A stretch of DNA of 32,666 bases. Origin: an uncultured Candidatus Saccharibacteria bacterium (GTDB taxonomy: Bacteria; Patescibacteriota; Dojkabacteria; SC72). Positions 2,662 to 19,471 of the stretch are shown here, piece after piece. Positions within the stretch are counted from its first letter, which is position 1. Every line of letters begins with the position of its first letter. The notes beneath the pieces were generated by a model. The model was not told the DNA's origin and did no database searches. It worked only from the letters and a program-made list of their open reading frames with translations. The stretch lies in contig CAZULJ010000005.1 of NCBI GenBank assembly GCA_964621195.1, positions 11,168-43,833 of the forward strand, read 5' to 3'. The translations under genes and the position numbers were made by a program.

Positions 2662-2682
2662 GATTGTATAGAATTTGTTTTT

Positions 2683-2711
2683 AACCCCCTCTTTGAGGGG
2701 GTTTTCTTTTT
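2683..2711 (+). terminator. Intrinsic terminator after the pilin gene
   Basis: Perfect 9-bp stem AACCCCCTC-ttt-GAGGGGGTT followed by TTCTTTTT. Confidence 0.85.
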
Positions 2712-2723
2712 CAGTAATGCATA

Positions 2724-2729
2724 TATAAT
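2724..2729 (+). promoter_or_regulatory. -10 box 5 nt upstream of the pilD ATG (candidate leaderless promoter)
   Basis: Perfect TATAAT at 2724-2729 and ATG at 2735. No clear -35 was found. Confidence 0.5.
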
Positions 2730-2734
2730 GGAGT

Positions 2735-4062: not shown

Positions 4063-4066
4063 TATA

Positions 4067-4095
4067 TTGTTTATATATGAGCTTTCTGTTAAATT
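4067..4095 (+). promoter_or_regulatory. Candidate promoter for the minor-pilin operon
   Basis: TTGTTT (4067-4072), 17 nt, TAAATT (4090-4095) with an extended -10 TG at 4087-4088. ATG is at 4125. Confidence 0.5.
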
Positions 4096-4124
4096 TAATA
4101 TAGATTACTTTTTAATCAAAAAAG

Positions 4125-5045: not shown

Positions 5046-5611
5046 TGCAATTAAAGAAGAAATCTAAACAATATGACGGCCTTGGTTTTGTAGAAGCTTT
5101 AATAGCTATTATGGTATCGGGAATAGTTGCAACTGTTTTAATAAATATCGCAGCATCTGCAATGAGAGAACTCATTAAACTAGATATTGAAGATGCACAG
5201 GCCCATCATGCAAGATCTGCTGCTGTTATCGTTCAAAATATGGCTAATAAAGAAAGACTGCAGGATGATGAAAACATCTTTGAAGACTTAGAAGAGAACA
5301 CCTGTTATCGAATTGATAAAAGTGGTGATAATTACGAATTTTACGATATCAATGGTGATGGAAGGTATACAGAAGGCGAAAGAGATAGATATAAGACGGA
5401 AGCAATAATAACGGATGGTGTAAATGACAATGAAGAGGATTACTTTAGGATAGTGTGTATTGAGAGTAATACTAGGGCGAACGCAGATCCTTCCGATGAC
5501 ACCAATAAAGTATTTATTAGTGTAATTATTGGTTTTAACAAGGTTGATGGGGAATTTACTTCCTCTGCGAATGTAAAGGATTATAAATATTATGCATTGA
5601 TAAACCTATGA
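5045..5611 (+). CDS. Minor pilin, PilV/GspI-like
   Basis: G|LGFVEALIAIMVSGIVATVLI class III-like signal with E5. TAATG-type 1-nt overlap with the upstream gene. Confidence 0.72.
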   Translation: MQLKKKSKQYDGLGFVEALIAIMVSGIVATVLINIAASAMRELIKLDIEDAQAHHARSAAVIVQNMANKERLQDDENIFEDLEENTCYRIDKSGDNYEFYDINGDGRYTEGERDRYKTEAIITDGVNDNEEDYFRIVCIESNTRANADPSDDTNKVFISVIIGFNKVDGEFTSSANVKDYKYYALINL

Positions 5612-6309
5612 TACACAAAGGTAAAAAATATGAAGGTTTTAGTCTAGTGGAGATGTTACTAACGATTGGTATCTTAGGAATCATCACACTATTAGTAGCT
5701 ACGACTCTCACTACATTAATAAAAGTATCAATTGTTTCTAATGCAAAAAATCAAGCTAGAAATGATATCAACTTTATAACCGAACTAATGCATAGATCTT
5801 TGGGAAATACAAATGTTGGAGATGTTACATTATATAATTCATCTGCTGTGAGATTTTTCGATGTGAGTACTATGACTGTTGTCGATGGTGCACCATTGGG
5901 AACTACATATTCTAGCCCTACTCTTATTACCGATACACCATCTAATGAGATTCATGTAAGATCTTACGGATACAATATATGGAGCTGTATAGGCTTCTTC
6001 TTTGATTCTAGAGAAGAGTATCGCGATTATGGATATCTTGTAAAAACTTCTAGGTACTCTTTAAATGATCACTCCGAATGCTTTGATGGAAGTTTACCAA
6101 ATTCGTATGTAGCTTTACTGCATAACTATTCAGTGAATGTAATAGATTTTAGTGTTGAATATCTTGTTGTTGGTGATGATAACGATAATATGTTTATCAT
6201 AAATACAGTAGTGGAACCACTCAATTGGCCAGAGGGCTTTAGTGTTCCAGTTAATAGGGAAATAACAAGACAAACCACGGTATCTACTCAAGGTTTGACT
6301 TGGTATTAG
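5608..6309 (+). CDS. Minor pilin, PilW/GspJ-like
   Basis: EG|FSLVEMLLTIGILGIITLLVA. ATGA overlap with the upstream gene. Confidence 0.78.
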   Translation: MIHKGKKYEGFSLVEMLLTIGILGIITLLVATTLTTLIKVSIVSNAKNQARNDINFITELMHRSLGNTNVGDVTLYNSSAVRFFDVSTMTVVDGAPLGTTYSSPTLITDTPSNEIHVRSYGYNIWSCIGFFFDSREEYRDYGYLVKTSRYSLNDHSECFDGSLPNSYVALLHNYSVNVIDFSVEYLVVGDDNDNMFIINTVVEPLNWPEGFSVPVNREITRQTTVSTQGLTWY

Positions 6310-6329
6310 TTAATTGTTAATTTTTATAT

Positions 6330-7292
6330 ATGACAAAAAACATAAAAAGTATGTACTCTGGGCAAGCAATTGCCATCGTTATGGTTATACTTGTAGTTGC
6401 AACTGTATTGGGAGCATCACTCTACTCAAGAACACTGAAAAACAAGGATGCAGCAATCAATACAAAAGATTCAATGCTCGCAGTTGAGCAAGCAGACAGC
6501 TTACTTGACCTATTTGTCCGTGCCGACTATCAATTCCTCCAAGATATGTATGCCACTATTCAACAGGATGGAGAAAAGACTTTTGATGATCTTGGTCAGC
6601 TTAGAACTTTTCTGTCAGACTATAACATAGATACTGGGCTGTTGGACAAGGAGGATGCATGGTGTGATGATGGTAGTACAGGGTCATCAATAAAACTAAC
6701 TATTAGCGAAGCAGATCCTGCAGACTTTGTTGATGTTCGAGTTGGTTCTTCAAGAGTTTTTAATTTGGCAGAAAGCGGGCTTGTTGCAACTGCCCCATGT
6801 GGTGTTACTTTGACCTTTGAGGCTAGAGACAACGCGCCTACAATATTTGTGGTAAAGGAAATTTATGGAGATGGTACACATATTGAAGAGTATGTTAACG
6901 ATGGTGCCTCCGTTGACGATATGATTGCATACTGTTTTGAACCAGATGGCTCGGCATGTTCAGATATCTCTGGGTTTGCGGCCCCAGCTGGATCCTTTCA
7001 AGCTCTTAGTGCAGGTAGAACTCTCGGTATAGATTTTGCTAAAACAAGAAATGGGTATCCACTTGCTCAAATTAGAATTATACCTTTGAACTTAACTTTA
7101 GGGGTATCTCATACTCCAACAGGTACATGTACTGGAAATGAGTTCTCATATATGAAAGTGAATGCTGCAGTTAACTGCTATGGATCCTTTAGAGAGAAGC
7201 AGATTATGATCCCAGGTGCTGATAGTCTTGGCTACTCTTCACTTTTTGACTATACTATTTACAATATTGGTACATTAAGACCTAATAACTAA
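6330..7292 (+). CDS. Minor pilin, PilX/GspK-like
   Basis: SG|QAIAIVMVILVVATVLG lacks E5, as is typical of PilX/GspK. It is the last and largest of the four-gene minor-pilin set. Confidence 0.72.
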   Translation: MTKNIKSMYSGQAIAIVMVILVVATVLGASLYSRTLKNKDAAINTKDSMLAVEQADSLLDLFVRADYQFLQDMYATIQQDGEKTFDDLGQLRTFLSDYNIDTGLLDKEDAWCDDGSTGSSIKLTISEADPADFVDVRVGSSRVFNLAESGLVATAPCGVTLTFEARDNAPTIFVVKEIYGDGTHIEEYVNDGASVDDMIAYCFEPDGSACSDISGFAAPAGSFQALSAGRTLGIDFAKTRNGYPLAQIRIIPLNLTLGVSHTPTGTCTGNEFSYMKVNAAVNCYGSFREKQIMIPGADSLGYSSLFDYTIYNIGTLRPNN

Positions 7293-7727: not shown

Positions 7728-8756
7728 GTGAAAATAGTTTTAAACAAAAGAAAATCTTTCTGGATTGTTTTTATGGTTTTATTCCTGTCTCTCCTAATAG
7801 GCTTAGTATATTTTTTCTATTCTAGCAACTTGTATAGGAATTATTTTTCTGGAAGATTTGATAGGTACGGAGAACTACTTTCTAAATGTGATGAAAAAAC
7901 AAATGATGGGAAGAGAATTTATAAATGTTCTGCACTTCTGAATTACGTTGATGTAAGTAAACAAGAGAAGGATTGTATTATCTTATCATATATTTCAGGT
8001 GATCCAAGTATTGAAAACAAAGAGATTTGTGAAGATTTTGAAATTATTGAATGGGATGAAGAAGTATTTAAAAAGGAAGAGAGATTTCCCGTATATCTAG
8101 AATTTATATATACTGGGAACTACATTCAGGGTTTTTCACTTGAGAAAATTCAAATTGAGTGGATGACAGATGATGAAACATCGATATTTACAAATTTACT
8201 TTCAGAGATTGGTGTCTCACTTACGAATTTAGCCACAAGGAGAGATTACAACATAGAACAGAGTGGATATTACTTCCAACCCCTTTCTGAAGAATTTTTT
8301 AATGGTAGTGTTGGAGTTGTTAATTTTGCACAAGCCAGAATTAAGGAATTTGCATTTGATGAAGGTATTGTAACTGTAAATTCTGAACTACTTATCAATG
8401 GGTTTTCAAGAGAATTAACATTAATAAGTAGGAAATTCCTCTATCAAAGAGATCCTATGGATGAGAATCTGCTAGAGGTTAAAAGAGAGAATTTATCTGA
8501 CTTAGATTTTAATAAAGAATATCAATTATCTGCTTTTTATCTTACTAAGTCAATTGATGAAGAGACATTTAAGAAAAAATGTTCAAACCCTGAAGAGATT
8601 GACATTTTTACACAAGCTTTTTGTTCTAGCTTTGAAACTTTGGAGATATCGGAGTATGTAATAGATATTGAGAAGTATTTAAATGAACAATTACTACTCG
8701 AGGGGGGCTTGCAACTGGATAAGGTAAAATTTTTTTATCTAGTTACATATGAGTAG
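7728..8756 (+). CDS. Hypothetical single-pass membrane protein, cassette 1 partner (paralog of 15174..16208)
   Basis: GTG start, N-terminal basic residues plus a TM helix, six Cys alignable with 15174..16208. Overlaps the next gene by 8 nt. Confidence 0.75.
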   Translation: MKIVLNKRKSFWIVFMVLFLSLLIGLVYFFYSSNLYRNYFSGRFDRYGELLSKCDEKTNDGKRIYKCSALLNYVDVSKQEKDCIILSYISGDPSIENKEICEDFEIIEWDEEVFKKEERFPVYLEFIYTGNYIQGFSLEKIQIEWMTDDETSIFTNLLSEIGVSLTNLATRRDYNIEQSGYYFQPLSEEFFNGSVGVVNFAQARIKEFAFDEGIVTVNSELLINGFSRELTLISRKFLYQRDPMDENLLEVKRENLSDLDFNKEYQLSAFYLTKSIDEETFKKKCSNPEEIDIFTQAFCSSFETLEISEYVIDIEKYLNEQLLLEGGLQLDKVKFFYLVTYE

Positions 8757-11139
8757 AAAAATATTTCAAAAAATTCTACTTTTATTATTACTTCCATTGC
8801 TAATCTTTATAAGCAAATCAGACACTTATGCACAAAGTACATACGATTGTACTCGTTGGGGTATGTATTGTCAGTTACCTGGAGGTATAATAAATGGTTT
8901 TTGGTATGAATGGTACTGGGGAGGATGCAGAAGATACCCAGATTCTGGAGGGTGGACTTGGCGTTGTACCGGTACAGATTCAGATTGTACAGAAAGTAGA
9001 TATAGGACTTACTACAGCTCTGAAGATGATTGTCTTGCCGGTAGAGATCCTAAGGGTACTGGCTGTTGCGGTAGTACTCCAACAATTCCACCTTGTAATG
9101 ATTGTACACTAGGCTCTTGTCCTGCTCCGCTAACAGAAACAGGTCTTGAGGAGTTCAAACTTTTGAATTATCGTGTATGCCAAAGAACAGGTAGCTGTGC
9201 GGGTCCTAAATACGGAGATTGTTACGAGAACAAAACAGGATCCGACCCAACAGCAAGTATTCAAGTATTCCCCGATGGTGTAGCCTCTACCCTTGGTTGT
9301 GTCTCTAATACCTACTCTAGCACCTATGTAAACAACAGAGTTAATATGGTAGGAACATATACAGACGCAGATGGGGGAACAGATATAGAAGCGATATACG
9401 TGTGGTTTAAAACGGATATTACAACCCCTAATACCCCTAAGTATATAGACCTAAATAACGATTCGGGTCAAACAGGTAGAACATACACAAGTAATAGCTT
9501 TGGCTTCATGATGCACAAAGAGGGAGGCAACTGGGTAGCATATGTTCCTAGCCTTGTAGGTGGAGGTAGTGATAAATGGGTAAGAGCTAGCATGTCAGGT
9601 AGTAACTTTGATATTTTGGGTCCTAGTGGTAGTGCATTAATCCGTATAGAGAATCCAGTAACAAATATTTCTGGTAACAATGTAACCTTAAACTTCTATG
9701 CCCACTTTGGTCCATCAGCAGCTAGTGATGGCTTGTACAACATATTTGTAATGGCTAATGATGTATTTGGATTTACCCCCTATGACAACTACGGTCCAGG
9801 AGTAACTAAGATGGGAGATTACTTTGATGAGGAAGAGATAAGGTATCATCAGGTATGGAGTGACAGTAGTAGAGATTGGGGATTGGACAAGATCTCCCCT
9901 ACCATCTCTTACTTAAATACTGAAGTTACTGCTCCTACTAAGATAAAGTTCTCTTGGGAAGCGGGTGATTTAAGGAACATTTATGGCATAGTTGGAAATC
10001 TATACAGATCTGATGGAGTTGTTAACTTTGAATCAGTACGAGATGTTACGTTAACATCTCTTGGGACAAAAACGGTTAATACCCCGTACCTACCAGAAGA
10101 ATTGGGCGAAAACGTTGTAGGTCATCTCAACAATGAATTTTTTGTAAGAGCGATGACACCTGGTAGTGTAAATCTTACAGGCGAGGTTGAAATGAACGTT
10201 GGTAGTAATAGAGAGGGCAGTATAATTTACTATGTTACTGCATTCGATATTGCATGCAATCCAGGAGCATTGTATTCAACATATGATCTTGAAGACTGGA
10301 TTATTACCTATGGAGGACTACTCTATTCTTCTACAGGTATAGAGTTTTATGTAAAGAATGTTGATGACCCAAATCTCTGGAATCCGGTGCTACTCTTAAA
10401 CAAAATCAGTCCACTATTTGCCGACATTTCAAGCGAATTGTATGGTAATGCTCTCAGTTTTCCATCTCCTTTGGAAAAGAGTGTTCAAAACAAATCCTTC
10501 TCTGTTAGCCCATTTGTAGCCTACAAGAGCTTTGACTTCTACAACGACTTGAGAAGGAGCTACGAAAGAAGAGAATTAGGTTTGCCCTCGAGTGTCAGCA
10601 GGTTAAATCCAAGTATATCTACTCTAACTGGTTACCTAAGTGGATATGGATCTGGTTCGGTTAAGGTCTTAAATAGAGTTGGAGATCTTACAATTGGAGA
10701 TACAAATGCTTTCTACTGCGATCAAAAAGGTTTGTTTTTCGTAAGTGGAGACTTGATAGTGAATCATGAAATATTGAATTCTGATAGAAACTCCGATGCA
10801 TGTATTTTTGTTGTAGATGGGGATATGATAATTAATCCTGGACCAGATTCTACGAATGGCGCGATTGGGACCTTGGGATATGATGAATTGAATGGATACT
10901 TCTTAGTGAATGGTTCTGTAACTATCAACGAAGACCCTTTCTACAATGGATTGTATATTAATGGAGGTATTCAATCTCTTGGTGGTATAGATATGAACAG
11001 GTATCTTGGACTTGATCATAGAAGCTTGTATCCTTTATTTTTTGTTGAGAACAGCTCAAAATATGGGTATACAAGTAGTGAATTAATTGGAGATCAAATA
11101 GATATTGTAAAGGTTGAACCAGGATACAAACCATATTAA
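8749..11139 (+). CDS. Secreted Cys-rich modular protein, putative adhesin (cassette 1)
   Basis: Sec-type signal (..SDTYA|Q), Trp/Tyr/Cys-rich N-terminal domain, one Cys repeat, beta-rich core, C-terminal domain with repeated (F/V)V.G.L.I motifs. Ends IDIVKVEPGYKPY. Confidence 0.75.
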   Translation: MSRKIFQKILLLLLLPLLIFISKSDTYAQSTYDCTRWGMYCQLPGGIINGFWYEWYWGGCRRYPDSGGWTWRCTGTDSDCTESRYRTYYSSEDDCLAGRDPKGTGCCGSTPTIPPCNDCTLGSCPAPLTETGLEEFKLLNYRVCQRTGSCAGPKYGDCYENKTGSDPTASIQVFPDGVASTLGCVSNTYSSTYVNNRVNMVGTYTDADGGTDIEAIYVWFKTDITTPNTPKYIDLNNDSGQTGRTYTSNSFGFMMHKEGGNWVAYVPSLVGGGSDKWVRASMSGSNFDILGPSGSALIRIENPVTNISGNNVTLNFYAHFGPSAASDGLYNIFVMANDVFGFTPYDNYGPGVTKMGDYFDEEEIRYHQVWSDSSRDWGLDKISPTISYLNTEVTAPTKIKFSWEAGDLRNIYGIVGNLYRSDGVVNFESVRDVTLTSLGTKTVNTPYLPEELGENVVGHLNNEFFVRAMTPGSVNLTGEVEMNVGSNREGSIIYYVTAFDIACNPGALYSTYDLEDWIITYGGLLYSSTGIEFYVKNVDDPNLWNPVLLLNKISPLFADISSELYGNALSFPSPLEKSVQNKSFSVSPFVAYKSFDFYNDLRRSYERRELGLPSSVSRLNPSISTLTGYLSGYGSGSVKVLNRVGDLTIGDTNAFYCDQKGLFFVSGDLIVNHEILNSDRNSDACIFVVDGDMIINPGPDSTNGAIGTLGYDELNGYFLVNGSVTINEDPFYNGLYINGGIQSLGGIDMNRYLGLDHRSLYPLFFVENSSKYGYTSSELIGDQIDIVKVEPGYKPY
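9547..10424 (+). repeat. 878-bp direct repeat, copy 1 (identical to 13594..14471)
   Basis: Line-by-line manual comparison found no mismatch. Constant offset 4047 nt, no indels. Confidence 0.92.
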
Positions 11140-11219: not shown

Positions 11220-12887
11220 ATGCTGCCTATTAAAAAATATATCCTAATATTCTTAGCTATAATCGCTGGAATCTTAGCTATCTTCTTTGGCTACACATAC
11301 TATTTAATGGTGACTTCTAATGGCTCTCATCTTACTATGTTTGTTGAGACAAAAGAGGATGTTTTAGGCCAGAAGATTAGAACAGATTTCCCTATCCAAG
11401 GTGAAGATGATATTACATACGTGTTCCCTGTTGTTTTTGAAAAAGTATTAGAAACAGATTCCGTATACAAATTTACTCTTTCTCCTACTGTATTCCCGAA
11501 AGACTCTGTTCGTGGTGAGAAATTTGAGTATGAGTTGGGTAAAGATAAATATGAGGGAGACATTGATATCAAAAGTATTGAACCAGGGGCAAAGGTATAT
11601 ATAAATCTCCAGTATGATTTGTCAAAGAATTTAAGATACTTCCTTGAATACTCCGTTTGTACTGTAAAGAAGGCTTACTCTGATCTCTTCAAATTAGATT
11701 TAACCTGTGGAAGAGGCAATTGTATAGTAAATCGTGATATTGATAATTGGGATATAAAGAAAATATCAAGCGAGATTACTGAGAAAGTAGAATATTTTGA
11801 AAGTTACAATCCGGAGGAGCTATCTACAAGATTGTTAAATTTCTTCATTACAGATGATTTCGGATATTTCAATCCTGAGGCTTTTAGATATGTATCTACT
11901 CAAACATCAAGGCCTGATGGAACATTTAGTTTCGCAACTCAGAGCATTAACAATCCTCAGGATGGTAAAAACAGTACACCTTCAATATTTTGGCTACTTA
12001 CGGGTGTCTCTGGAGCTTTAGAAAGAGAGGATATCGATTTAGAAGGGTACATGTCTACTGTTTTAGGATATTTAGATGGTGAGACATACGGTGAGGCATA
12101 CTTCCAGAACTGTACCGCATCTTCGTATATTATTGAAAACTTAAAATCTTGTTCATCTCAGTCTTGTGAAGGTGTAAAAAAGAAGGCATTCGAATATTGC
12201 GAGGAGACATTACAAACTGCTATCGCTAAGTACGATACCACTGCCCAAGCATTTTCCCAATATACAAGAAAATCGATATTGAGAGGATATCTCTTCGGTA
12301 TTTCTTCGGAAATGATTAAATACAACAAGATTGCACAGGCAATGGGTCTCGAACCAAAGTATACAATGAACGATTTGAGTTCTTTCTATGAGAAGGGTAA
12401 AGGGGTCTTAGGAAATTCAGAGGAGATTTTACCAATCTGTTATCAATTGAAATCGGCAAAAGACATATACAATGAATATCCTTTAGATTCTTTGCTTTTA
12501 GATATTGAGATATTGTATGGAAAGATTGATGGCTTAGAAACCATCTGCGACAAAGATTCTAGAAATACTTTCTGTGAGTTATCAATATCCGAAAAATTAG
12601 TATGTGTTGATGCATTAATGGGTTACAAGAATATTGAGGCAAAAAATCTTCTTTCGGATATTTTCTACAGACATTACTTTGAGAGTCCTGGGGCGGTGAA
12701 GATGGTGACATATGAAAACTGGAGATTCTCACCATTTAGTGAAGAAAATCCTAACTCTTATACGAAGATTGAAGATTATGGATATTTGACATCTATCGTT
12801 GATGATGAGGGATTTGTAACACACTCTGCACATATTGGTGATTCATATTACTTTATAAATTTACTGAGACTTTTAAACAATGAGTAA
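11220..12887 (+). CDS. Hypothetical single-pass membrane protein, cassette 2 partner (555 aa, Cys-containing, not obviously homologous to the other two partners)
   Basis: N-terminal TM helix, beta-like N-terminal part, helical-looking C-terminal part with many Cys. 8-nt overlap with the next gene. Confidence 0.72.
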   Translation: MLPIKKYILIFLAIIAGILAIFFGYTYYLMVTSNGSHLTMFVETKEDVLGQKIRTDFPIQGEDDITYVFPVVFEKVLETDSVYKFTLSPTVFPKDSVRGEKFEYELGKDKYEGDIDIKSIEPGAKVYINLQYDLSKNLRYFLEYSVCTVKKAYSDLFKLDLTCGRGNCIVNRDIDNWDIKKISSEITEKVEYFESYNPEELSTRLLNFFITDDFGYFNPEAFRYVSTQTSRPDGTFSFATQSINNPQDGKNSTPSIFWLLTGVSGALEREDIDLEGYMSTVLGYLDGETYGEAYFQNCTASSYIIENLKSCSSQSCEGVKKKAFEYCEETLQTAIAKYDTTAQAFSQYTRKSILRGYLFGISSEMIKYNKIAQAMGLEPKYTMNDLSSFYEKGKGVLGNSEEILPICYQLKSAKDIYNEYPLDSLLLDIEILYGKIDGLETICDKDSRNTFCELSISEKLVCVDALMGYKNIEAKNLLSDIFYRHYFESPGAVKMVTYENWRFSPFSEENPNSYTKIEDYGYLTSIVDDEGFVTHSAHIGDSYYFINLLRLLNNE

Positions 12888-15165
12888 AGTAATTAAATAT
12901 TTAAAGGTATTCTCAATATTGTTGCTATCTGTTGCTACTGTATTGATTTTGAAAAATGACAACCTATATGCTTGGAACGGATGTTGTTCCCCCTCTTCTC
13001 AATGGTCTGGAACATTATGGAATGGATGCTGTTACTCTGGTGGTGGTGGTGATAACTGTTGCTCCTTGGGCGATGCCATTGCTTCTGGTTGTGAAGGTAT
13101 TCTTCCATGTCCGAACTGTCAAGGTGGTGATCCACCATGTGAGGAGTGCACGCTAGGTAGTTGTCCAGCTCCTTTAACTAATACAGGTGATCCTGAGTTT
13201 AAGCTTGAGGATTACAGAAGGTGCCAGAATGGTGAATATTGTGATGATGAATGGAAATACGGAGATTGCTATGAAAACAAAACAGGATCTGATCCAACAG
13301 CTAGTATCCAGGTATTCCCTGATGGAGTAGCCTCCACCCTTGGTTGTGTGTCTAATACCTACTCTAGTACCTATGTAAACAACCGAGTTAATATGGTAGG
13401 CACATACACTGATGCAGATGGAGGAACAGATATAGAAGCGATATACGTATGGTTTAAAACAGAGAGTGCAATCCCTAATACCCCTAAGTATATAGACTTG
13501 AATAACGATTCGGGTCAAACAGGTAGTACGTACACAAGTAATAGCTTTGGATTCATGATGCACAAAGAAGGCGGTAGCTGGGTCGCGTATGTACCTAGCC
13601 TTGTAGGTGGAGGTAGTGATAAATGGGTAAGAGCTAGCATGTCAGGTAGTAACTTTGATATTTTGGGTCCTAGTGGTAGTGCATTAATCCGTATAGAGAA
13701 TCCAGTAACAAATATTTCTGGTAACAATGTAACCTTAAACTTCTATGCCCACTTTGGTCCATCAGCAGCTAGTGATGGCTTGTACAACATATTTGTAATG
13801 GCTAATGATGTATTTGGATTTACCCCCTATGACAACTACGGTCCAGGAGTAACTAAGATGGGAGATTACTTTGATGAGGAAGAGATAAGGTATCATCAGG
13901 TATGGAGTGACAGTAGTAGAGATTGGGGATTGGACAAGATCTCCCCTACCATCTCTTACTTAAATACTGAAGTTACTGCTCCTACTAAGATAAAGTTCTC
14001 TTGGGAAGCGGGTGATTTAAGGAACATTTATGGCATAGTTGGAAATCTATACAGATCTGATGGAGTTGTTAACTTTGAATCAGTACGAGATGTTACGTTA
14101 ACATCTCTTGGGACAAAAACGGTTAATACCCCGTACCTACCAGAAGAATTGGGCGAAAACGTTGTAGGTCATCTCAACAATGAATTTTTTGTAAGAGCGA
14201 TGACACCTGGTAGTGTAAATCTTACAGGCGAGGTTGAAATGAACGTTGGTAGTAATAGAGAGGGCAGTATAATTTACTATGTTACTGCATTCGATATTGC
14301 ATGCAATCCAGGAGCATTGTATTCAACATATGATCTTGAAGACTGGATTATTACCTATGGAGGACTACTCTATTCTTCTACAGGTATAGAGTTTTATGTA
14401 AAGAATGTTGATGACCCAAATCTCTGGAATCCGGTGCTACTCTTAAACAAAATCAGTCCACTATTTGCCGATATTTCAACCGAAATGTATGGTAACTCTT
14501 TGAGTAATCCTGGTGTATTAGATAAGAGCAATGTGACGAAGTCTTACAGTATTAGTCCGTTTACGGGATACACAGTCTATGATTTCTATAAAGATGTAAA
14601 AACAACCTTTGAAAGAAGGGAATTAGGAATCGAAAATATTGTGAGATTAAACCCCTCAACATCTTCTCTTACTGGGAGTTTAGGTGGGGGGACAGTTAAA
14701 GTATTAGATAGAAATGGGAATCTTACAGTTGGTGATGCTAATCCTTTTGTTTGTAGCGGTAAGGGAATATTCTTTGTAAGTGGTAATTTGACAATAAATA
14801 ACTCAATACTTAATTCTGATCTGGCATCTGATGCATGTATTTTTGTTGTAGATGGAGATATGATAATAAATCCTGGTAGAGATTCCTCGGGGGGATTGAT
14901 AGGGTATGACGAATTGAATGGGTATTTCCTAATCAATGGAAATATAATTATCAATGAAGATAGCGCATTTGATGGGATATATGTTAGTGGCGGTCTGCAA
15001 TCTCTCGGTGGTTTTGAGATGAGTAGATACTTGGGTCTCGCATATAGAGATATGCATCCACTACTTGTAGTAAACCATCACTCAAAATATGGAATATTTA
15101 GTAGTACACTAATTGGAACTCCAATTGATATTGTAAAAACTGAGGTAGGTTTTAAGATATATTAA
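12880..15165 (+). CDS. Secreted Cys-rich modular protein, putative adhesin (cassette 2), paralog of 8749..11139
   Basis: Signal ..DNLYA|W, distinct short tip with WNGCC twice, one Cys repeat, core nearly identical to cassette 1. Ends IDIVKTEVGFKIY. Confidence 0.75.
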   Translation: MSKVIKYLKVFSILLLSVATVLILKNDNLYAWNGCCSPSSQWSGTLWNGCCYSGGGGDNCCSLGDAIASGCEGILPCPNCQGGDPPCEECTLGSCPAPLTNTGDPEFKLEDYRRCQNGEYCDDEWKYGDCYENKTGSDPTASIQVFPDGVASTLGCVSNTYSSTYVNNRVNMVGTYTDADGGTDIEAIYVWFKTESAIPNTPKYIDLNNDSGQTGSTYTSNSFGFMMHKEGGSWVAYVPSLVGGGSDKWVRASMSGSNFDILGPSGSALIRIENPVTNISGNNVTLNFYAHFGPSAASDGLYNIFVMANDVFGFTPYDNYGPGVTKMGDYFDEEEIRYHQVWSDSSRDWGLDKISPTISYLNTEVTAPTKIKFSWEAGDLRNIYGIVGNLYRSDGVVNFESVRDVTLTSLGTKTVNTPYLPEELGENVVGHLNNEFFVRAMTPGSVNLTGEVEMNVGSNREGSIIYYVTAFDIACNPGALYSTYDLEDWIITYGGLLYSSTGIEFYVKNVDDPNLWNPVLLLNKISPLFADISTEMYGNSLSNPGVLDKSNVTKSYSISPFTGYTVYDFYKDVKTTFERRELGIENIVRLNPSTSSLTGSLGGGTVKVLDRNGNLTVGDANPFVCSGKGIFFVSGNLTINNSILNSDLASDACIFVVDGDMIINPGRDSSGGLIGYDELNGYFLINGNIIINEDSAFDGIYVSGGLQSLGGFEMSRYLGLAYRDMHPLLVVNHHSKYGIFSSTLIGTPIDIVKTEVGFKIY
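13594..14471 (+). repeat. 878-bp direct repeat, copy 2 (identical to 9547..10424)
   Basis: As for copy 1. Confidence 0.92.
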
Positions 15166-15173
15166 AAACTTGA

Positions 15174-16208
15174 ATGAAAATACTTGTTAGTAAAAAAACA
15201 TCTGTAATATTTACAATGCTTGGTGTTATTCTTGTTCTTTCATCTGTTCTGGGAGGGTATTATCTCTATGAGAGAAATGTAATCATAAATGGTCAGTATG
15301 AATTAGATAAATACAGAGAGGAAACCGAGCTATGTACAAGAGAAGGTTTTTTTGGAAAGTTGAATTTTCGCTGTGAAGGATACATAGATATTTACCAAGA
15401 AAAGGATGGTAGAGATTGTTTCTCAATGGCTTTATTAAGTCCAGAAAAGGAGCTCTACTATAAGGAGATATGTGAACCAAAAGATTCCATAGAGTGGGAT
15501 AGAGGGACAATGATTTCTGAGAAAAAAGTCCCAGTATTTGTAGAGTTTTCATATTCAAGGCCAATGTTCGGTGGTTATGTCATAGATAGCATCAAATACA
15601 CCCTTATGTCCGATGAAGAGATTCAGAATTTTGCAGGCAAACTTGTGGAAGAAAGAATACCTGTACCTCATCTACGTACCCAACTAGAAGAGGATCTGGA
15701 ATATAAAGGTTACTATTTATCAAATGAACTTGAAGTTGCTGGGGGGGGAGGCCTAAGTTTTTTTGTACTCTTTAGTGCCAGTATAAAAGAAGTCGCGGTA
15801 TTGGGTGATAATTTAAGTATTACAGTACAGTTCTCAAACGAAGGTAAGGAATATGAATCAGTTTTTGTTGTAAAATCGGTTATGTTCCAAAAGGATATGT
15901 CTACAAATTACATCTCTTTAGATGTGAGTAACATTCAGGACTATGAATTCTCCGATTCTTCTCAAATCCTCTTGATGTATCTTGGAGAAGACACCAACCT
16001 TAGAAAGGAAGAGATTCTTTCCTACTGTTCTTCAGGTAATATATTGGCTGAATTCTTCTCCATTTGTTCAATAGTTGAAGATATTAATATAGATTCTTAC
16101 CGTATTGCAAATGCCGAAGAATACTTTAGATCTTCTTTAGAAAAGAATGCTGATGGCTTCGTTGATCTTGATAAGTTTCTGCTAAGTGGAATTCTTTTTA
16201 GATTGTAG
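15174..16208 (+). CDS. Hypothetical single-pass membrane protein, cassette 3 partner (paralog of 7728..8756)
   Basis: Shares DC..., KEICE...IEWD, PV(Y/F).EF.Y and M(T/S)D(D/E)E plus a C-terminal Cys pair with 7728..8756. Contains a G8 run at 15741-15748. Confidence 0.75.
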   Translation: MKILVSKKTSVIFTMLGVILVLSSVLGGYYLYERNVIINGQYELDKYREETELCTREGFFGKLNFRCEGYIDIYQEKDGRDCFSMALLSPEKELYYKEICEPKDSIEWDRGTMISEKKVPVFVEFSYSRPMFGGYVIDSIKYTLMSDEEIQNFAGKLVEERIPVPHLRTQLEEDLEYKGYYLSNELEVAGGGGLSFFVLFSASIKEVAVLGDNLSITVQFSNEGKEYESVFVVKSVMFQKDMSTNYISLDVSNIQDYEFSDSSQILLMYLGEDTNLRKEEILSYCSSGNILAEFFSICSIVEDINIDSYRIANAEEYFRSSLEKNADGFVDLDKFLLSGILFRL

Positions 16209-16210
16209 AA

Positions 16211-19200
16211 ATGAAAATTGGAAAATTAAAAACAATTATACTTTCAATATTTTTTCTGACAACATTGTTTGTTGTGTTAGAAATATCTAAAGGAGATGTT
16301 TCTGCAATGATCTGTGGAACTAACTACTATTGTACAACATCAAATCAATGGGTTAATTCTTATGTTCGTATCGGTGGTGGCTCATGCCATTACATTACTT
16401 ATTACTCGTGCAATGGAAATGATACAAACTGTCAGGAAGACTATGTTGATATATATTCTGATGCAGAATGTGCAGTAAAAACTCACGATGACTATGGTTG
16501 TTGTATATATGATTCACCTCCTGCTTGTAACAATTGTACACCATCGTCTCCACCTGCTTGTCCAGCGGGTACAACAGAGACAAATACGGGAGACTTCCAT
16601 TCCTCGACAACTTCAAGTTGTGATAGAGGCTCTGGTTGTGATCCAAGATATAATACTAGTACGAGAAACTGCTACTGTTCACTTTGTACGCCACCATCAT
16701 GTACCCCAACCTACTCTACAACCAATCTAGGTTTTGGTTCAATATCTCTTTCTTGTCAAAACTCTCCCACTGGAGACTCTCGTTGTGATTACAGATCAAA
16801 TACTTGCTACTGTTACCAATGTACTCCTGCAAACTGTCCTGCTGATTTGAGCAATACGGATCTCGGTGTTGGAGTTAGTACTCATACGGTATCTTGTACC
16901 AATGCATGTAGCTCAAGTAACAGTCGGGCCTGTTATTGTAGAGATTGTACATTACCAGTTCCTTCTGGAACAACATTAACAAATACTGGCCGACAATCTA
17001 CTGATCCTACCTATCAAAGCACAAGCTGTAGTAAGGGTACCGGATGTACTCCAAAAAGTGCACCATTGTACTGTACAAGATGTACTCCTACAGCATGTGG
17101 CCCCACCTACGCTACTTCAAACCAGGGATATGGCACCTTGAACTTTACTTGTAATAATACTTTGGCTTCCTGTGGTACTGAGACCAGAGCTTGTTACTGC
17201 TATAGCTGTACACCACCGGCCTGTGCACCAACCTACAGTACTACAAATTATGGATATGGCTCAGTTACATTAAGCTGTACGAATGCATGTAGTACAACTA
17301 GTAACAGAACCTGTTATATTGATAGATGTAGTAACTGTACACTACCAAACTGCCCATCTCCACTCACAAATACCCCTACCACAGCAGATCCAAATATGGA
17401 ACTTACAAACTTCAGATCATGTACACGTAGTGCACCTTGCGGTGGTCCAGCAAACTATGGAGCATGTTATGAGGTTGTAAGCCCACAACCAACAACAAGT
17501 TTACAAATATATCCTGATGCTGCAAATGTTTATAACTTCTCGAGTAGTACACATACGGGAACTAGAACACCGCTTTACAACCTTAATGACCCAATACCTA
17601 TGACTGCTACATATACAGATGTCAATGGAGCCACTGATATTGAGGCTGTATCTGTTTGGTTTAGAGATGAAAGTCTTTCTGGGGAGATAAATACTCCGTT
17701 AGTTTTTATGGAGACGGGTGGACCTTCGGTACCTGCACCACAAACGGAAACAAATAATAGCTGGGGCTTTATGATGAGATGGAATGGCTCGACATGGCTT
17801 CCATATGTACCTTCTTACCCTTCAGCGCCTAGTACTCCAGCTTGGGTCCCTGCCTTGTATGCTAGCAATTCTTTTGTAATTTCAGGTCCTAATGGACTAC
17901 AAATGGTGAGAGTTACAATAGGTCATTCTCTTCAGAGTAATATCACTAGGTCTGGAAATAACGTAGTATTACCATTCCAACTTAGTTTTAACTTCTCCTC
18001 AGGATATGATAGCGTAGCTCAGGTTGATTACCAGACTTACCTAATGGGTAACGATGTCTTCAGTTTTACACCAAGTGATAACTATGCCTTCTCGGTTGAG
18101 GGTTACTGGCAGGGTGGTCAATTACGATACCGAACGAGCCAATTACCTGCACAGCTTTATGCAAGGCAGTGGGCATTAACAGGGTATACATGGAGTGTAG
18201 ATAAGGATGTTCCAGAAGTAGAAGACCTTACTATGACAGTAATTGGTGATACAACTTTAAGATTAAGTTGGAATGTAACTGATTCTAGAGAAATATATGC
18301 TGTTGTGGGAAATATCTATGCATCAATTAGTATGCCTCCAAACCCTGATGATCTAGTAATTACTGGCACAGGTTTGGATGTGAACTCCCCTCATCAACTT
18401 ATTACAGATACTACAGATCTTGCAAAATTGAATACAGGTTATGCTTTCAGAGGTTTAAATATTGGCGGTACAACATATACAAACAATGTAACAATCGATA
18501 TCGGTTCAAATATTGAGGGAAGTCTTGTAGTATACCTCACGGCTTTTGATATGGCCGGTAATATGAGTACAAGAAGTTTAACCTACTCTCTTGGCGATTG
18601 GATAGCTACGTATGGTGGATTTGTATACTCTTCTGAGGGTAGAGACTATGAAATGAAGACAATAGAAAGTGATACCGCTTGGGATTCAGTACCTGTTCTA
18701 GCTGGGCTGGATCCAACCCTTGCGGATGTCTCTACAGAGCTTTTCGCAGATAATCAAAGTAGTGGTACATTGCCATCAGCTCTTGATAGAAGTACCGAGT
18801 TACGTTCTTACCACATGAGACCATTTAGTGTGAATGTAGAAATGGATAGTCTGTATCAGGAATTAAAACAGGCTTACAATGATAGGGAAATTGAAGGAAA
18901 GGTGGATCTAACCTTGGACTTACCTATGATTACAAGTCTAAATGGTAATCTAAGTGATATTGGGAGCTGTACTGACTCTTCAAGGGTATGTATTTTAAAA
19001 AGACAAGGAGATTTGGATGTCGGGAATGTATCAACGTTTAATTGTGATCAATGGGGAGTATTCTTTGTAGAAGGAAATCTAACTATTTCAAGAAACATTG
19101 TTAATGCAAATCCTTCCTATGACGCATGTATCTTTGTAGTTGGAGGTGAAGTTTTAATTGAAGATGGACAGGCACATTCTAACGCTTTACTGATAGGGTA

Positions 19201-19471
19201 TGATCAGATCAATGCATATATAATGGCGGATGGAGCAGTAAATATCCAAGCTGAGCTTGGTGCAGCTGCAAAGTATGATGGTGTATTTGTAGGCGGTGGT
19301 TTACATAGTTTAACAGGCATTAATATGGATAGAAGTCTTAAGTTGGCAGACAGAAATATATACCCTGCTCTACTTGTTAAATATCATCCTAAATACTCGG
19401 TATTGAGTAATCTTGTATTTGGTAGTCAGATTGATATACTAAAAACAGAATTAGGTTTTAAACCATACTAG
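16211..19471 (+). CDS. Large secreted Cys-rich repeat protein, putative adhesin (cassette 3, 1086 aa)
   Basis: Signal ..GDVSA|M, tip alignable to that of cassette 1, seven Cys repeats, diverged core (TYTDVNGATDIEAVSVWF vs TYTDADGGTDIEAIYVWF). Ends IDILKTELGFKPY. Confidence 0.75.
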   Translation: MKIGKLKTIILSIFFLTTLFVVLEISKGDVSAMICGTNYYCTTSNQWVNSYVRIGGGSCHYITYYSCNGNDTNCQEDYVDIYSDAECAVKTHDDYGCCIYDSPPACNNCTPSSPPACPAGTTETNTGDFHSSTTSSCDRGSGCDPRYNTSTRNCYCSLCTPPSCTPTYSTTNLGFGSISLSCQNSPTGDSRCDYRSNTCYCYQCTPANCPADLSNTDLGVGVSTHTVSCTNACSSSNSRACYCRDCTLPVPSGTTLTNTGRQSTDPTYQSTSCSKGTGCTPKSAPLYCTRCTPTACGPTYATSNQGYGTLNFTCNNTLASCGTETRACYCYSCTPPACAPTYSTTNYGYGSVTLSCTNACSTTSNRTCYIDRCSNCTLPNCPSPLTNTPTTADPNMELTNFRSCTRSAPCGGPANYGACYEVVSPQPTTSLQIYPDAANVYNFSSSTHTGTRTPLYNLNDPIPMTATYTDVNGATDIEAVSVWFRDESLSGEINTPLVFMETGGPSVPAPQTETNNSWGFMMRWNGSTWLPYVPSYPSAPSTPAWVPALYASNSFVISGPNGLQMVRVTIGHSLQSNITRSGNNVVLPFQLSFNFSSGYDSVAQVDYQTYLMGNDVFSFTPSDNYAFSVEGYWQGGQLRYRTSQLPAQLYARQWALTGYTWSVDKDVPEVEDLTMTVIGDTTLRLSWNVTDSREIYAVVGNIYASISMPPNPDDLVITGTGLDVNSPHQLITDTTDLAKLNTGYAFRGLNIGGTTYTNNVTIDIGSNIEGSLVVYLTAFDMAGNMSTRSLTYSLGDWIATYGGFVYSSEGRDYEMKTIESDTAWDSVPVLAGLDPTLADVSTELFADNQSSGTLPSALDRSTELRSYHMRPFSVNVEMDSLYQELKQAYNDREIEGKVDLTLDLPMITSLNGNLSDIGSCTDSSRVCILKRQGDLDVGNVSTFNCDQWGVFFVEGNLTISRNIVNANPSYDACIFVVGGEVLIEDGQAHSNALLIGYDQINAYIMADGAVNIQAELGAAAKYDGVFVGGGLHSLTGINMDRSLKLADRNIYPALLVKYHPKYSVLSNLVFGSQIDILKTELGFKPY
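16526..17473 (+). repeat. Seven degenerate ~40-51-aa Cys/Thr-rich protein repeats (C-T-P/L-x2-C-P...TN.G...C...C...CY-C/E)
   Basis: Units end in RNCYC, NTCYC, RACYC, PLYC, RACYC, RTCYI and GACYE. Diverged at DNA level. Confidence 0.85.

What the first reader, a model, noticed from the sequence alone, without database searches (positions are those of the whole stretch)
16526..17473. Cys/Thr-rich ~45-aa repeat present in 1, 1 and 7 copies: a modular disulfide-stapled stalk
Seen: the unit C-x2-C-T-(P/L)-x2-C-P...T(N/E)xG...C...C...CY(C/E) occurs once at 9094-9228, once at 13138-13275 and seven times at 16526-17473, always between tip and core. The last unit of the seven (CSNCTLPNCPSPLTN...NFRSC...YGACYE) is the closest match to the single units. 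Inference: it is a length-tuning spacer projecting the tip about seven modules further in cassette 3. I do not recognise the unit as EGF, TSP1 or TNFR, although it is superficially similar to eukaryotic Cys-rich extracellular repeats. It implies strong oxidative-folding capacity in a cell without a classical periplasm.
Basis: partly seen in the sequence, partly recalled or inferred. Interest (0 to 1): 0.62.

Follow-up and report, generated by a model that had tools for sequence, protein, structure and literature searches.

The report
New disulfide-rich stalk repeat, pilus-locus proteins
Three secreted proteins in the type IV pilus gene cluster of an uncultured ultra-small (Dojkabacteria/CPR) bacterium carry 1, 1 and 7 copies of a roughly 45-residue six-cysteine module that matches no described domain. 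It most likely forms a stiff, disulfide-stapled neck or stalk between a variable binding head and a conserved body.

Summary
They share the framework C-x2-C-T-P-x2-C ... C ... C ... C-Y, and there are no others in this 99.6%-complete genome.

The unit matches nothing in Pfam, NCBIfam, PDB sequences, or Foldseek against PDB and BFVD. A profile search of 1.84 billion proteins returned only members of the same protein family. That family occurs in one family-level clade of Dojkabacteria, always in the slot between the minor pilins and pilM.

AlphaFold2 folds the seven-unit array confidently (pLDDT 89.5). Each unit is an irregular N-terminal segment plus one beta-hairpin, and most junctions have no linker.

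Among about 200 units, cysteines are lost or gained in pairs: 164 have six, 15 have four (Cys3 and Cys6 lost together) and 7 have eight. With almost no His and few hydrophobic residues, this favours three disulfides over metal sites.

Copy number runs from 0-1 to 7 among paralogs and orthologs. The units are old and positionally orthologous, not recent DNA repeats.

The genus has a membrane-anchored DsbA-like CPYC protein but no recognisable DsbB or VKOR.

The stalk reading is supported structurally. The disulfide state, rod geometry and pilus-tip location are inferred.

The parts
16526..17473 (+). Seven-unit Cys/Thr-rich array (aa 106-421 of the 1086-aa protein P0001)
   Evidence: Unit starts at aa 106, 156, 201, 243, 288, 330 and 373. 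Unit-HMM domains score 37-52 bits each. The AF2 array model has pLDDT 89.5 with one beta-hairpin per unit. Composition is T 18%, S 13%, C 12.7%, P 9%, with 2 His.
16937..17071 (+). Unit 4, the conserved four-Cys variant lacking Cys3 and Cys6 together
   Evidence: Sequence CRDCTLPVPSGTT...APLY. The same variant occurs in 15 units of at least 13 homologs. No unit lacks only one of the two cysteines.
17327..17473 (+). Unit 7, the core-proximal 'neck' unit, orthologous to the single units of the short paralogs
   Evidence: 45-50% identical to the P0002/P0003 units and 66-75% to the last unit of the orthologs compared. Scores 42.8 bits with a profile built from single-unit proteins only.
9094..9228 (+). 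Single unit of P0002 (aa 116-160)
   Evidence: In the full-length AF2 model pLDDT is 71-90, with a hairpin at E137-145/E153-159.
13138..13275 (+). Single unit of P0003 (aa 87-132)
   Evidence: 66.9 bits.
16211..19471 (+). P0001, the long paralog: signal peptide, 8-Cys tip (about aa 33-105), 7 units, beta-sandwich core, C-terminal beta-solenoid-like domain, conserved C-terminal peptide
   Evidence: Orthologs with 4-7 units have cores 58-69% identical.
8749..11139 (+). P0002, a short paralog (796 aa, 1 unit)
   Evidence: AF2 pLDDT is 81.7. Foldseek's best matches for the core are tandem Ig-like adhesin domains (ClfB, SdrG, Als3, AspA, integrin alpha legs) at E 1e-6 to 1e-4 with low TM scores.
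12880..15165 (+). P0003, a short paralog (761 aa, 1 unit, different tip)
   Evidence: 81% identical to P0002 over 88% of its length.
19430..19468 (+). Conserved C-terminal 13-mer (IDILKTELGFKPY), a candidate docking strand
   Evidence: Conserved at the C-terminus of the full-length family members inspected (consensus). In the P0002 AF2 monomer the last 10 residues have pLDDT 25. The analogy is to the PilC/PilY1 C-terminal strand in PMC13533445.
7728..8756 (+). Single-pass companion protein of cassette 1
   Evidence: Has an N-terminal TM segment. It is 27% identical over its full length to the cassette-3 companion, E 4e-29. No Pfam or NCBIfam match.
11220..12887 (+). Companion of cassette 2 (555 aa), unrelated to the other two
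   Evidence: A 554-aa ORF occupies the corresponding position in a congener (L005).
15174..16208 (+). Single-pass companion protein of cassette 3
2134..7292 (+). Pilins, prepilin peptidase and minor pilins upstream, which define the 'PilY1 slot'
   Evidence: N_methyl motifs occur on five ORFs. The ORF at 2735-3499 corresponds in position and length (254 aa) to the A24_N_bact prepilin-peptidase gene called in L002. PilT- and PilC-like ORFs lie at 3-2096. PilM is at 19519-20547.

Best explanation
The ~45-residue unit is a previously undescribed small extracellular domain. It lacks a hydrophobic core and is held together by three intramolecular disulfides.

From paired loss of cysteines, the inferred connectivity is Cys3-Cys6, Cys2-Cys4 and Cys1-Cys5. 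An irregular CxxCTPxxCP segment would be stapled onto a beta-hairpin.

One copy, the core-proximal 'neck', is the ancestral state. It joins a hypervariable Cys/aromatic-rich head to the conserved beta-sandwich body of a family of secreted proteins. These proteins occupy the PilC/PilY1 position of the Dojkabacteria type IV pilus operon.

In the long paralog lineage, extra copies were inserted N-terminal to the neck. Adjacent units usually abut with zero linker (…C-Y-C…), and the hairpin strand runs across the junction. The result would be a thin, stiff, covalently cross-braced stalk carrying the head away from the body.

The probable roles are to present the head on a slender rigid probe and to transmit pilus-retraction or shear load without unfolding. 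Oxidation would be carried out outside the membrane by the single membrane-anchored DsbA-like CPYC protein.

Shown: the repeat, its restriction to this clade, its confident modular fold, copy-number variation, paired Cys changes, the operon position, and the presence of DsbA.

Inferred: the oxidised state, the exact pairing, rod geometry, pilus-tip location and mechanical role.
For: 1. The repeat is real and in register.

2. It is a folded module. AF2 of aa 100-425 has mean pLDDT 89.5, with 198/326 residues at >=90 and one hairpin per unit. In several units the second strand continues into Cys1 of the next unit. The single unit in full-length P0002 has pLDDT 71-90.

3. Composition argues for covalent stabilisation. 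L+V+I+F+M total about 8%, Cys is 12.7%, and there are only 2 His in 316 residues.

4. Cysteines change in pairs. Of 200 units, 164 have 6 Cys, 15 have 4 and 7 have 8. All 15 units lacking Cys3 also lack Cys6, and no unit lacks only one of them. One unit (P0073) lacks Cys2 and Cys4 together. In one group of eight-Cys variants the extra pair sits opposite across the hairpin.

5. The proteins are exported: they carry N-terminal signal peptides. The pilins in the operon carry C-terminal Cys pairs. Exported ORFs of the genome are biased towards even Cys counts: 50/80 against 48% for cytoplasmic ORFs, p=0.01.

6. A DsbA-like CPYC protein with an N-terminal anchor is present, and in 10/10 congeners.

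7. Spacer-like behaviour. There are 0-7 units per protein with constant flanks. Unit counts per genome in the genus are 9, 6, 5, 5, 4, 8, 1 and 5. The linker is 0 aa at 88/131 junctions. The tip is 16-48% identical among orthologs, against 41-68% for the array and 58-69% for the core.

8. Short and long paralogs co-occur in the same locus in four genomes examined.

9. Operon position. The genes lie after the minor pilins and a response regulator and before pilM. The conserved C-terminal peptide is left unstructured by AF2. This parallels the PilC/PilY1 C-terminal strand that docks into PilK and bears >=100 pN (PMC13533445).
Against: - There is no direct evidence that the cysteines are oxidised. 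Structure prediction returned no coordinates, so S-S distances, connectivity and end-to-end length could not be measured.
- The Cys3/Cys6 co-loss is essentially one ancestral event inherited by orthologous units. The Cys2/Cys4 co-loss rests on one metagenomic sequence.
- No DsbB or VKOR is detectable in the genome or in 9 congeners. How DsbA would be re-oxidised is unknown.
- P0003 and its orthologs have an odd total Cys count of 19.
- The protein is not homologous to PilY1. There is no Pfam hit, and the C-terminal domain is beta-solenoid-like rather than a propeller. Pilus-tip location is inferred from position only.
- On a long pilus, an estimated 15-20 nm of extra length has no obvious value for reach.
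- Non-Cys positions are about as conserved as the core (roughly 63% against 69% for P0041). This would also fit a binding surface.
Confidence: 0.55

Rival explanations
1. The units are themselves ligand-binding modules, for example small disulfide-rich carbohydrate- or host-envelope-binding domains in the manner of hevein/CBM18-type modules. Copy number would then tune avidity rather than length.
For: - Positional orthologs are about as conserved as the core, even outside the Cys positions: array 68% against core 69% for P0041.
- The conserved T-x-T-N-x-G-Y-G loop and 6% Tyr on an otherwise polar surface resemble sugar-binding surfaces.
- The head+unit module is also found fused to a different Ig-repeat stalk (P0074 and 4 further related clusters). 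It therefore travels with the presumed binding end.
Against: - No similarity to any CBM, lectin or other Pfam family at E<=10.
- No PDB or Foldseek match.
- The hypervariable part is the tip, not the units.
- Zero-length linkers and strands shared across junctions look structural.
Confidence: 0.2
2. The proteins are not pilus-tip subunits. They are cell-surface proteins held by their single-pass companions, and the array spans or clears the wall or S-layer in the manner of a Periscope-type or fibrillar adhesin. It would still be a spacer, but measured from the cell surface.
For: - Each large gene is translationally coupled to a single-pass membrane protein.
- Foldseek's best matches for the core are cell-wall-anchored MSCRAMM, Als and AgI/II adhesins.
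- For a surface-anchored protein, 15-20 nm of extra height is functionally meaningful (Periscope concept, PMC8201768).
Against: - There is no LPxTG, lipobox or C-terminal TM segment. The sequences end in ...GFKPY.
- The genes are invariably inside the T4P operon between the minor pilins and pilM.
- The conserved, unstructured C-terminal peptide fits the PilC/PilY1 docking mode.
- The repeats are not near-identical at the DNA level, unlike those of Periscope proteins.
Confidence: 0.2
3. The cysteines coordinate metal. For example, Cys1, Cys2, Cys4 and Cys5 could form a Cys4 zinc site (CxxC...Cx3-9C), so the units would be zinc-knuckle-like rather than disulfide modules.
For: The conserved four-Cys variant retains exactly Cys1, 2, 4 and 5, i.e. 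CxxC plus Cx5C. No DsbB or VKOR is detectable.
Against: - The proteins are exported (signal peptides).
- Cys4-Cys5 spacing varies from 2 to 13 residues, unlike zinc knuckles.
- The P0073 unit lacks Cys2 and Cys4 but keeps Cys1, 3, 5 and 6, which would destroy such a site.
- Eight-Cys variants add a pair.
- There are only 2 His in the array.
- A DsbA-like protein is present.
Confidence: 0.07

Closest known systems
Stalk repeats of fibrillar adhesins and 'Periscope proteins' (SHIRT, Rib, G5-E; PMC8201768, PMC9704523, PMC9210967)
   Same: A tandem array of small modules lies between an N-terminal functional head and the rest of the protein. Copy number differs between genes and lineages while the flanks stay constant. 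The modules join with little or no linker.
   Different: - Periscope repeats are near-identical at the DNA level and vary between strains. Here the units are 20-62% identical, have no DNA repeat and are positionally orthologous across species.
- The modules here are about 45 aa and cysteine-stapled, not 80-100-aa Ig-like or SHIRT folds.
- There is no LPxTG anchor.
- The genes lie in a T4P operon.
Eukaryotic disulfide-rich extracellular repeats (EGF, TSP1, TNFR Cys-rich domain, CCP/sushi) and protist CXXC surface proteins (Giardia VSP)
   Same: Modules of about 40-60 aa have 4-8 Cys in a fixed framework and a small beta-hairpin core, and are arranged head-to-tail in extracellular proteins.
   Different: No profile match to any of them, with no Pfam hit at all at E<=10, and no Foldseek match (best E 0.64). 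The Cys spacing and the CxxCTP/...CY signature are distinct. The host is a bacterium.
PilC/PilY1 type IV pilus tip adhesins (PMC7541494, PMC13533445)
   Same: A large secreted protein is encoded next to the minor pilins. It has a variable N-terminal region, a conserved C-terminal region, and a conserved extreme C-terminal peptide.
   Different: No PilY1/PilC beta-propeller was detected (no Pfam hit), and the C-terminal domain is beta-solenoid-like. There are multiple cassettes, each with its own single-pass companion. PilC/PilY1 is not known, from my own knowledge, to have a Cys-rich stalk.
DsbA without DsbB (Staphylococcus aureus DsbA) and BdbD-dependent ComGC pseudopilin oxidation in Bacillus subtilis. 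Both are from my own knowledge and were not checked here.
   Same: A membrane-tethered DsbA-like oxidoreductase acts outside a single membrane, and type IV filament proteins are among the likely substrates.
   Different: B. subtilis has the DsbB homolog BdbC. This genus has no detectable DsbB or VKOR, yet would need to make about 26 disulfides in one protein.

Membership tests
EGF / TSP1 / TNFR_c6 / any Pfam Cys-rich repeat | Significant match to the family profile | tested here: not met
   hmmscan against Pfam-A gave 0 families on the array at E<=10, and 0 on P0001-P0003 at E<=0.01. NCBIfam gave 0 at E<=1.
Any solved fold (PDB) or viral predicted fold (BFVD) | Significant sequence or structural match | tested here: not met
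   PDB sequence searches gave 0 hits at E<=10, both with the unit profile and with the array. Foldseek with the array model gave a best E of 0.64 against PDB and 0.053 against BFVD. Caveat: Foldseek is weak on 45-aa modules queried as a seven-unit rod.
Periscope proteins | Highly similar tandem DNA repeats that allow strain-level length variation | tested here: not met
   TRF gave 0 arrays. Only 15-42-nt diverged matches were found. Units are 20-62% identical within the array, against 64-78% for positional orthologs in P0041.
Periscope proteins | Variable repeat number with constant flanking domains | tested here: met
   There are 0-7 units among 72 family members and 4-7 among the nine orthologs of P0001 compared (cores 58-69% identical).
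Periscope proteins | Rod-like, rigid repeat region | tested here: inconclusive
   AF2 is confident per unit, the linker is 0 aa at 88/131 junctions, and the strand spans several junctions. No coordinates were available to measure shape, and pTM is 0.57.
Periscope proteins / MSCRAMM | Cell-wall sorting signal (LPxTG) | tested here: not met
   The sequences end ...GYKPY...GFKIY and ...GFKPY, with no LPxTG or C-terminal TM segment.
PilC/PilY1 | Gene adjacent to the minor-pilin genes of a T4P operon | tested here: met
   The order is the same in L002, L003 and L005.
PilC/PilY1 | C-terminal beta-propeller domain (Pfam Neisseria_PilC) | tested here: not met
   No Pfam hit. In the AF2 model, aa 600-796 form short repeated strands that look solenoid-like. 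PilY1 is not among the Foldseek matches shown.
PilC/PilY1 | The last ~10 residues add a beta-strand to the PilK-family minor pilin | not testable with these tools
   The conserved C-terminal 13-mer has pLDDT 25 in the monomer. No multimer prediction was available. The criterion comes from PMC13533445.
Disulfide-rich extracellular domain (generic) | Exported; even, conserved Cys framework; Cys gained or lost in pairs; no hydrophobic core | tested here: met
Disulfide-rich extracellular domain (generic) | Cysteines actually oxidised, with defined connectivity | not testable with these tools
   The only evidence is inference from co-loss patterns: C3-C6 and C2-C4, hence C1-C5.
Cys4 zinc knuckle / ribbon | Two tight CxxC-type knuckles with fixed spacing, usually cytoplasmic | tested here: inconclusive
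   The first pair is CxxC (x2 in 128/164, x3 in 34). The second pair has spacing x2-x13. The proteins are exported. One unit lacks Cys2 and Cys4. Metal content cannot be tested here.

The most novel reading that the evidence does not exclude
The unit is a new protein fold: a 45-residue, triple-disulfide 'chain-link'. Consecutive links would share a beta-strand (Cys6-Tyr-Cys1'). Only about 10 residues per unit would then lie in the force path, giving a practically inextensible nanorod about 2 nm thick. CPR bacteria would mount it on type IV pilus tips to push a variable head through a host's surface layer and hold on during retraction. The roughly 26 disulfides of the long protein would be made by a DsbA that has no DsbB or VKOR partner, implying an unknown re-oxidation route in an organism with a minimal genome.
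Probability: 0.3. Interest if true: 0.65.

Novelty: new variant of a known kind. Interest (0 to 1): 0.45.

Why it matters
CPR/Patescibacteria are thought to live attached to other microbes, and in Saccharibacteria type IV pili are needed for host association. Which proteins recognise the host is largely unknown.

This family sits in the pilus-tip-adhesin slot. It has a hypervariable head, comes in short and long versions in the same locus, and is confined to one Dojkabacteria clade. That makes it a concrete candidate host-specificity determinant.

The Cys-rich unit is a new domain family that could be added to domain databases, which would improve annotation of hundreds of 'hypothetical' CPR proteins.

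It also gives a tractable test object, a 326-aa confidently modelled array, for two questions. How do monoderm-like ultra-small cells do oxidative folding with only a DsbA? Can disulfide-stapled mini-domains serve as load-bearing stalks in the way isopeptide-bonded pilins do?

Tried and rejected
- Tandem Repeats Finder and a direct-repeat search on the DNA found no real DNA repeat. Slipped-strand or recombinational length switching is therefore rejected.
- Pfam at E<=10, NCBIfam at E<=1, PDB sequence search (profile and array) and Foldseek against PDB and BFVD gave no significant match. EGF, TSP1, TNFR, hevein, VSP and myxococcal Cys-repeat membership are rejected on sequence.
- The unit profile was searched against 1.84 billion representatives. 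It gave 20 hits: 19 in the same family and one low-complexity artefact, P0068.
- DsbB and VKOR were searched in the own genome and in the genus and not found. A manual screen of CxxC-containing membrane ORFs found no plausible substitute.
- The AF2 models returned no coordinates in /data. Cys-Cys distances and rod length could not be measured.
There was therefore no read-level check of expression or of population-level unit-number variants.
- A literature search for a Cys-rich pilus protein in Patescibacteria found nothing relevant.
- The claim that the unit is restricted to one protein family had to be softened. A congener carries head + one unit fused to Flg_new and five Ig_Rha78A_N domains, outside any T4P locus.
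Full report
**Context**

The window is part of a 925-kb, 99.6%-complete genome. The closest named relatives are Candidatus Dojkabacteria (WS6, CPR/Patescibacteria).

The finding lies in a type IV pilus operon. Its gene order is as follows.
- PilT- and PilC-like ORFs (3-2096).
- Two pilin genes with N-methylation motifs, flanking a PilD-like ORF (2134-4062).
- Four minor-pilin-like ORFs (4125-7292).
- A response regulator (7310-7696).
- Three cassettes, each a single-pass membrane 'companion' followed by a large signal-peptide protein: 7728/8749, 11220/12880 and 15174/16211.
- PilM (19519-20547) and two PilN/O-like ORFs.

Companions 1 and 3 are homologous (27% identity, E 4e-29). Companion 2 is unrelated to them.

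P0001 (16211-19471, 1086 aa) has seven consecutive units starting at aa 106, 156, 201, 243, 288, 330 and 373 and ending at aa 421. This is nt 16526-17473. P0002 (796 aa) has one unit at aa 116-160 (nt 9094-9228). P0003 (761 aa) has one at aa 87-132 (nt 13138-13275).

The nine units align on the framework C-x2-C-T-P-x2-C-P-x3-T-x-T-N-x-G ... C ... C ... C-Y. Unit 7 is indeed the closest to the single units: 45-50% identity, against 22-39% for the others.

I tested this against chance with a profile built only from single-unit proteins.
- It scores unit 7 at 42.8 bits and units 1 and 3 at 13-14.5 bits.
- It places the other four units in exact register, though with low scores.
- The best score in 200 shuffled arrays is 7.3 bits.

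A six-frame profile scan of the whole genome finds these nine units and nothing else. There is no repeat at the DNA level. TRF finds nothing, and only 15-42-nt diverged matches sit at the C-Y-C-x-x-C-T-P junctions.

**It matches nothing described**

- Pfam-A gives no hit on the array even at E<=10, and none on the three whole proteins.
- NCBIfam gives none at E<=1.
- PDB sequence searches with the unit profile and with the array give none at E<=10.
- A profile search of 1.84 billion representative proteins gave only 20 hits at E<=0.001. Nineteen are members of the same family, sharing the core (full-length members end ...EVGFKPY). One is a low-complexity artefact.

**Distribution**

The family was found in 16 of 20 sampled genomes of the same GTDB family. 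It was found in 0 of 381 other genomes of the phylum.

The unit profile hits all 8 sampled genomes of the genus and 15 of 53 other genomes of the family. Unit counts per genome in the genus are 9, 6, 5, 5, 4, 8, 1 and 5.

Among 72 collected family members, the number of units is 0 (4 proteins), 1 (31), 2 (3), 3 (6), 4 (11), 5 (6), 6 (6) or 7 (5). At least two of the '0' cases (P0017, P0040) carry a unit too diverged for the profile.

In three other genomes the same slot, between the response regulator and pilM, holds a short and a long paralog side by side.
- L002: 857 aa with 1 unit, plus 1163 aa with 6 units.
- L003: 846 aa plus 1096 aa.
- L005: 763 aa plus 1093 aa.

There is one exception to 'one family only'. 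A congener carries a Cys-rich head plus one eight-Cys unit fused to an InlB-type B-repeat and five Ig_Rha78A_N domains, outside any pilus locus (P0074). Five clusters with this architecture (one identical to P0074) exist in the large database. The head+neck module can therefore be mounted on a different stalk.

**Structure**

AF2 of aa 100-425, using an alignment of 36 sequences, has mean pLDDT 89.5, with 198 residues at >=90 and none of the array disordered. Its pTM is 0.57.

Every unit has the same layout.
- An irregular N-terminal CxxCTPxxCP segment.
- A one- to two-residue bridge near the T-(Y/L) position.
- A beta-hairpin. Cys4 ends strand 1, Cys5 lies in or near the turn, and Cys6-Tyr ends strand 2.

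In several units strand 2 continues into Cys1 of the next unit. Consecutive unit envelopes abut with 0 residues at 88 of 131 junctions, and with 3 residues at 21 more.

In full-length P0002 (pLDDT 81.7) the regions differ.
- The single unit is confident (71-90).
- The tip is poorly predicted.
- The core is a series of beta-sandwiches followed by a domain of short repeated strands.
- The last 10 residues are unstructured (pLDDT 25).

Foldseek's best matches for the core are tandem Ig-like domains of surface adhesins: ClfB, ClfA, SdrG, Als3, AspA and integrin alpha legs. E-values are 1e-6 to 1e-4, but TM scores are low, so this shows only a general resemblance.

The array model has no significant structural neighbour in PDB (best E 0.64) or BFVD (best E 0.053). 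Foldseek is not sensitive for such small modules, so 'new fold' is likely but not proven.

**Disulfide or metal?**

No coordinates were returned, so I used sequence evidence.

1. The proteins have signal peptides.

2. The array has almost no hydrophobic core residues: L 4.4, V 1.6, I 0.6, F 1.3 and M 0.3%. It has 12.7% Cys and only two His.

3. Of 200 units, 164 have six Cys, 15 have four and 7 have eight. The units counted with five or seven Cys that I inspected are envelope-edge effects (a Cys1 cut off, or Cys1 spaced x3-x4 from Cys2) or tip-adjacent units carrying one extra Cys.

4. All 15 units that lack Cys3 also lack Cys6, and none lacks only one of them. This is a conserved subtype, which includes unit 4 of P0001. 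It therefore counts as roughly one evolutionary event that has been maintained.

5. One unit (P0073) lacks Cys2 and Cys4 but keeps Cys1, 3, 5 and 6.

6. One group of eight-Cys variants adds one Cys right after Cys4 and one between Cys5 and Cys6, opposite each other across the hairpin.

7. Cys4-Cys5 spacing ranges from 2 to 13 residues, unlike a zinc knuckle.

Together these favour three intra-unit disulfides with pairing C3-C6, C2-C4 and C1-C5. The pairing is an inference.

**Oxidative folding capacity**

The genome encodes one DsbA/Thioredoxin_4 protein with an N-terminal membrane anchor and a CPYC site. It is present in 10 of 10 genomes of the genus.

DsbB and VKOR are absent from all ten, two of which are single-contig assemblies. 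A screen of CxxC-containing membrane ORFs found no plausible replacement.

Two further observations fit extracytoplasmic oxidation.
- Exported ORFs show a modest excess of even Cys counts: 50/80, against 48% for cytoplasmic ORFs, p=0.01. The gene calling here was crude.
- The operon's pilins have the usual C-terminal Cys pairs.

So the machinery is present but minimal, and the re-oxidant is unknown.

**Evolution of the array**

Units within P0001 are 20-62% identical to one another. They are 64-78% identical to the unit at the same position in the ortholog P0041. The diagonal pattern persists in P0043 and P0029.

The array is therefore old and not homogenised. Orthologs differ through loss, gain or duplication of whole internal units.
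- P0043 has 6 units.
- P0047 has 4.
- P0042 has two copies of the four-Cys unit.
- In ten proteins a domain of roughly 138 aa is inserted after the first unit.

Between orthologs the tip is 16-48% identical, the array 41-68% and the core 58-69%. The head diversifies, while the array is about as constrained as the body.

**How it most likely works**

The gene position, the variable N-terminus with a conserved C-terminus, and the conserved terminal 13-mer left unstructured in the monomer parallel PilC/PilY1. The last ~10 residues of PilC/PilY1 were recently shown to insert as a beta-strand into the PilK-family minor pilin. That interface must bear >=100 pN during retraction (PMC13533445).

The family is not homologous to PilY1. 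It has no Pfam hit and no propeller.

If the analogy holds, the C-terminus is fixed to the pilus tip and the N-terminal head is distal. The Cys-rich units then lie in the load path between them. A chain of core-less mini-domains, each cross-braced by three disulfides and joined without linkers, would be thin, stiff and hard to unfold.

The single neck unit is the ancestral connector. The long paralogs extend it to 4-7 units, which I estimate roughly at 15-20 nm. That figure was not measured.

I consider 'mechanically robust slender probe' a better rationale than 'reach', because the pilus itself supplies reach.

The alternatives are listed with odds under the rival explanations:
- the proteins sit on the cell surface with their companions;
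- the units are themselves binding modules;
- the cysteines bind metal.

**Comparison with known systems**

Functionally the closest known things are the stalk repeats of fibrillar adhesins and Periscope proteins (PMC8201768, PMC9210967). The defining near-identical DNA repeats and the LPxTG anchor are absent here.

Architecturally the unit resembles eukaryotic EGF/TSP1/TNFR/CCP-type modules, but without detectable homology.

I rate it a new variant of a known kind: a new, clade-restricted disulfide-rich domain family used as an adhesin neck or stalk. It is moderately interesting, chiefly as a handle on CPR host recognition and on DsbA-only oxidative folding.

**Limits**

- No experimental evidence.
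- The oxidised state, pairing, rod shape, location and function are all inferences.

Noticed in passing
own genome contig C2:84223-84978 (L001:1258-2013): This is the only DsbA-like protein in the genome: 251 aa, with an N-terminal anchor and a CPYC site. It is conserved in 10/10 genomes of the genus. DsbB and VKOR are absent from all ten, including two closed genomes. What re-oxidises it is unknown.
   Followed up: partly
window 19430-19468, 11098-11136, 15124-15162: A conserved C-terminal 13-mer (…K(T/V)E(V/L/P)G(F/Y)K(P/I)Y) ends the full-length family members inspected. In the P0002 model AF2 leaves the last 10 residues unstructured (pLDDT 25). This fits the PilC/PilY1 'beta-strand addition to PilK' mechanism of PMC13533445, but no multimer model could be run.
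   Followed up: partly
homologs P0026, P0029, P0031, P0032, P0034, P0046, P0050, P0051, P0052, P0066 (not in the window): A domain of roughly 136-142 aa with no Pfam match is inserted between the first unit and the remaining units of the stalk in ten long orthologs. P0001 lacks it.
   Followed up: no
L004:6887-9301 (-) in congener G191 (protein P0074): A second architecture carries the module: signal peptide, Cys-rich head, one eight-Cys unit, an InlB-type B-repeat (Flg_new_2) and five Ig_Rha78A_N domains. It is not in a pilus locus. Five clusters with this architecture (one identical to P0074) exist in the large protein collection.
   Followed up: partly
own genome contig C1:74570-77629 (-) and C1:77830-79995 (-): Two adjacent large exported proteins (1019 aa with 36 Cys, and 721 aa with 14 Cys). 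The first carries a different Cys-rich repeat, C-x-DPDGC-x-C-x-Y...C...C-P, in at least three copies, followed by a Thr/Pro linker. This may be another lineage-specific disulfide-rich surface protein.
   Followed up: no
window 7728-16208 and loci L002, L003, L005: Cassette number and make-up vary between genomes. This window has 3 cassettes. L003 and L005 have 2 (companion + short, companion + long). L002 has one companion followed by the short and long genes. The 555-aa companion type always precedes the P0003-type short protein in the two genomes where it was seen.
   Followed up: partly
homologs P0040 and P0071 (not in the window): Some family members have a Gly_rich_2 domain (PF21722), plus several hundred extra residues, inserted within the C-terminal domain just before the final conserved segment.
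   Followed up: no
window 9208-14471: P0002 and P0003 are near-identical through the first part of the core, with long identical stretches visible in the translations, while the tips and C-terminal domains differ. This is consistent with the earlier gene-conversion note. It was not re-analysed here.
   Followed up: no
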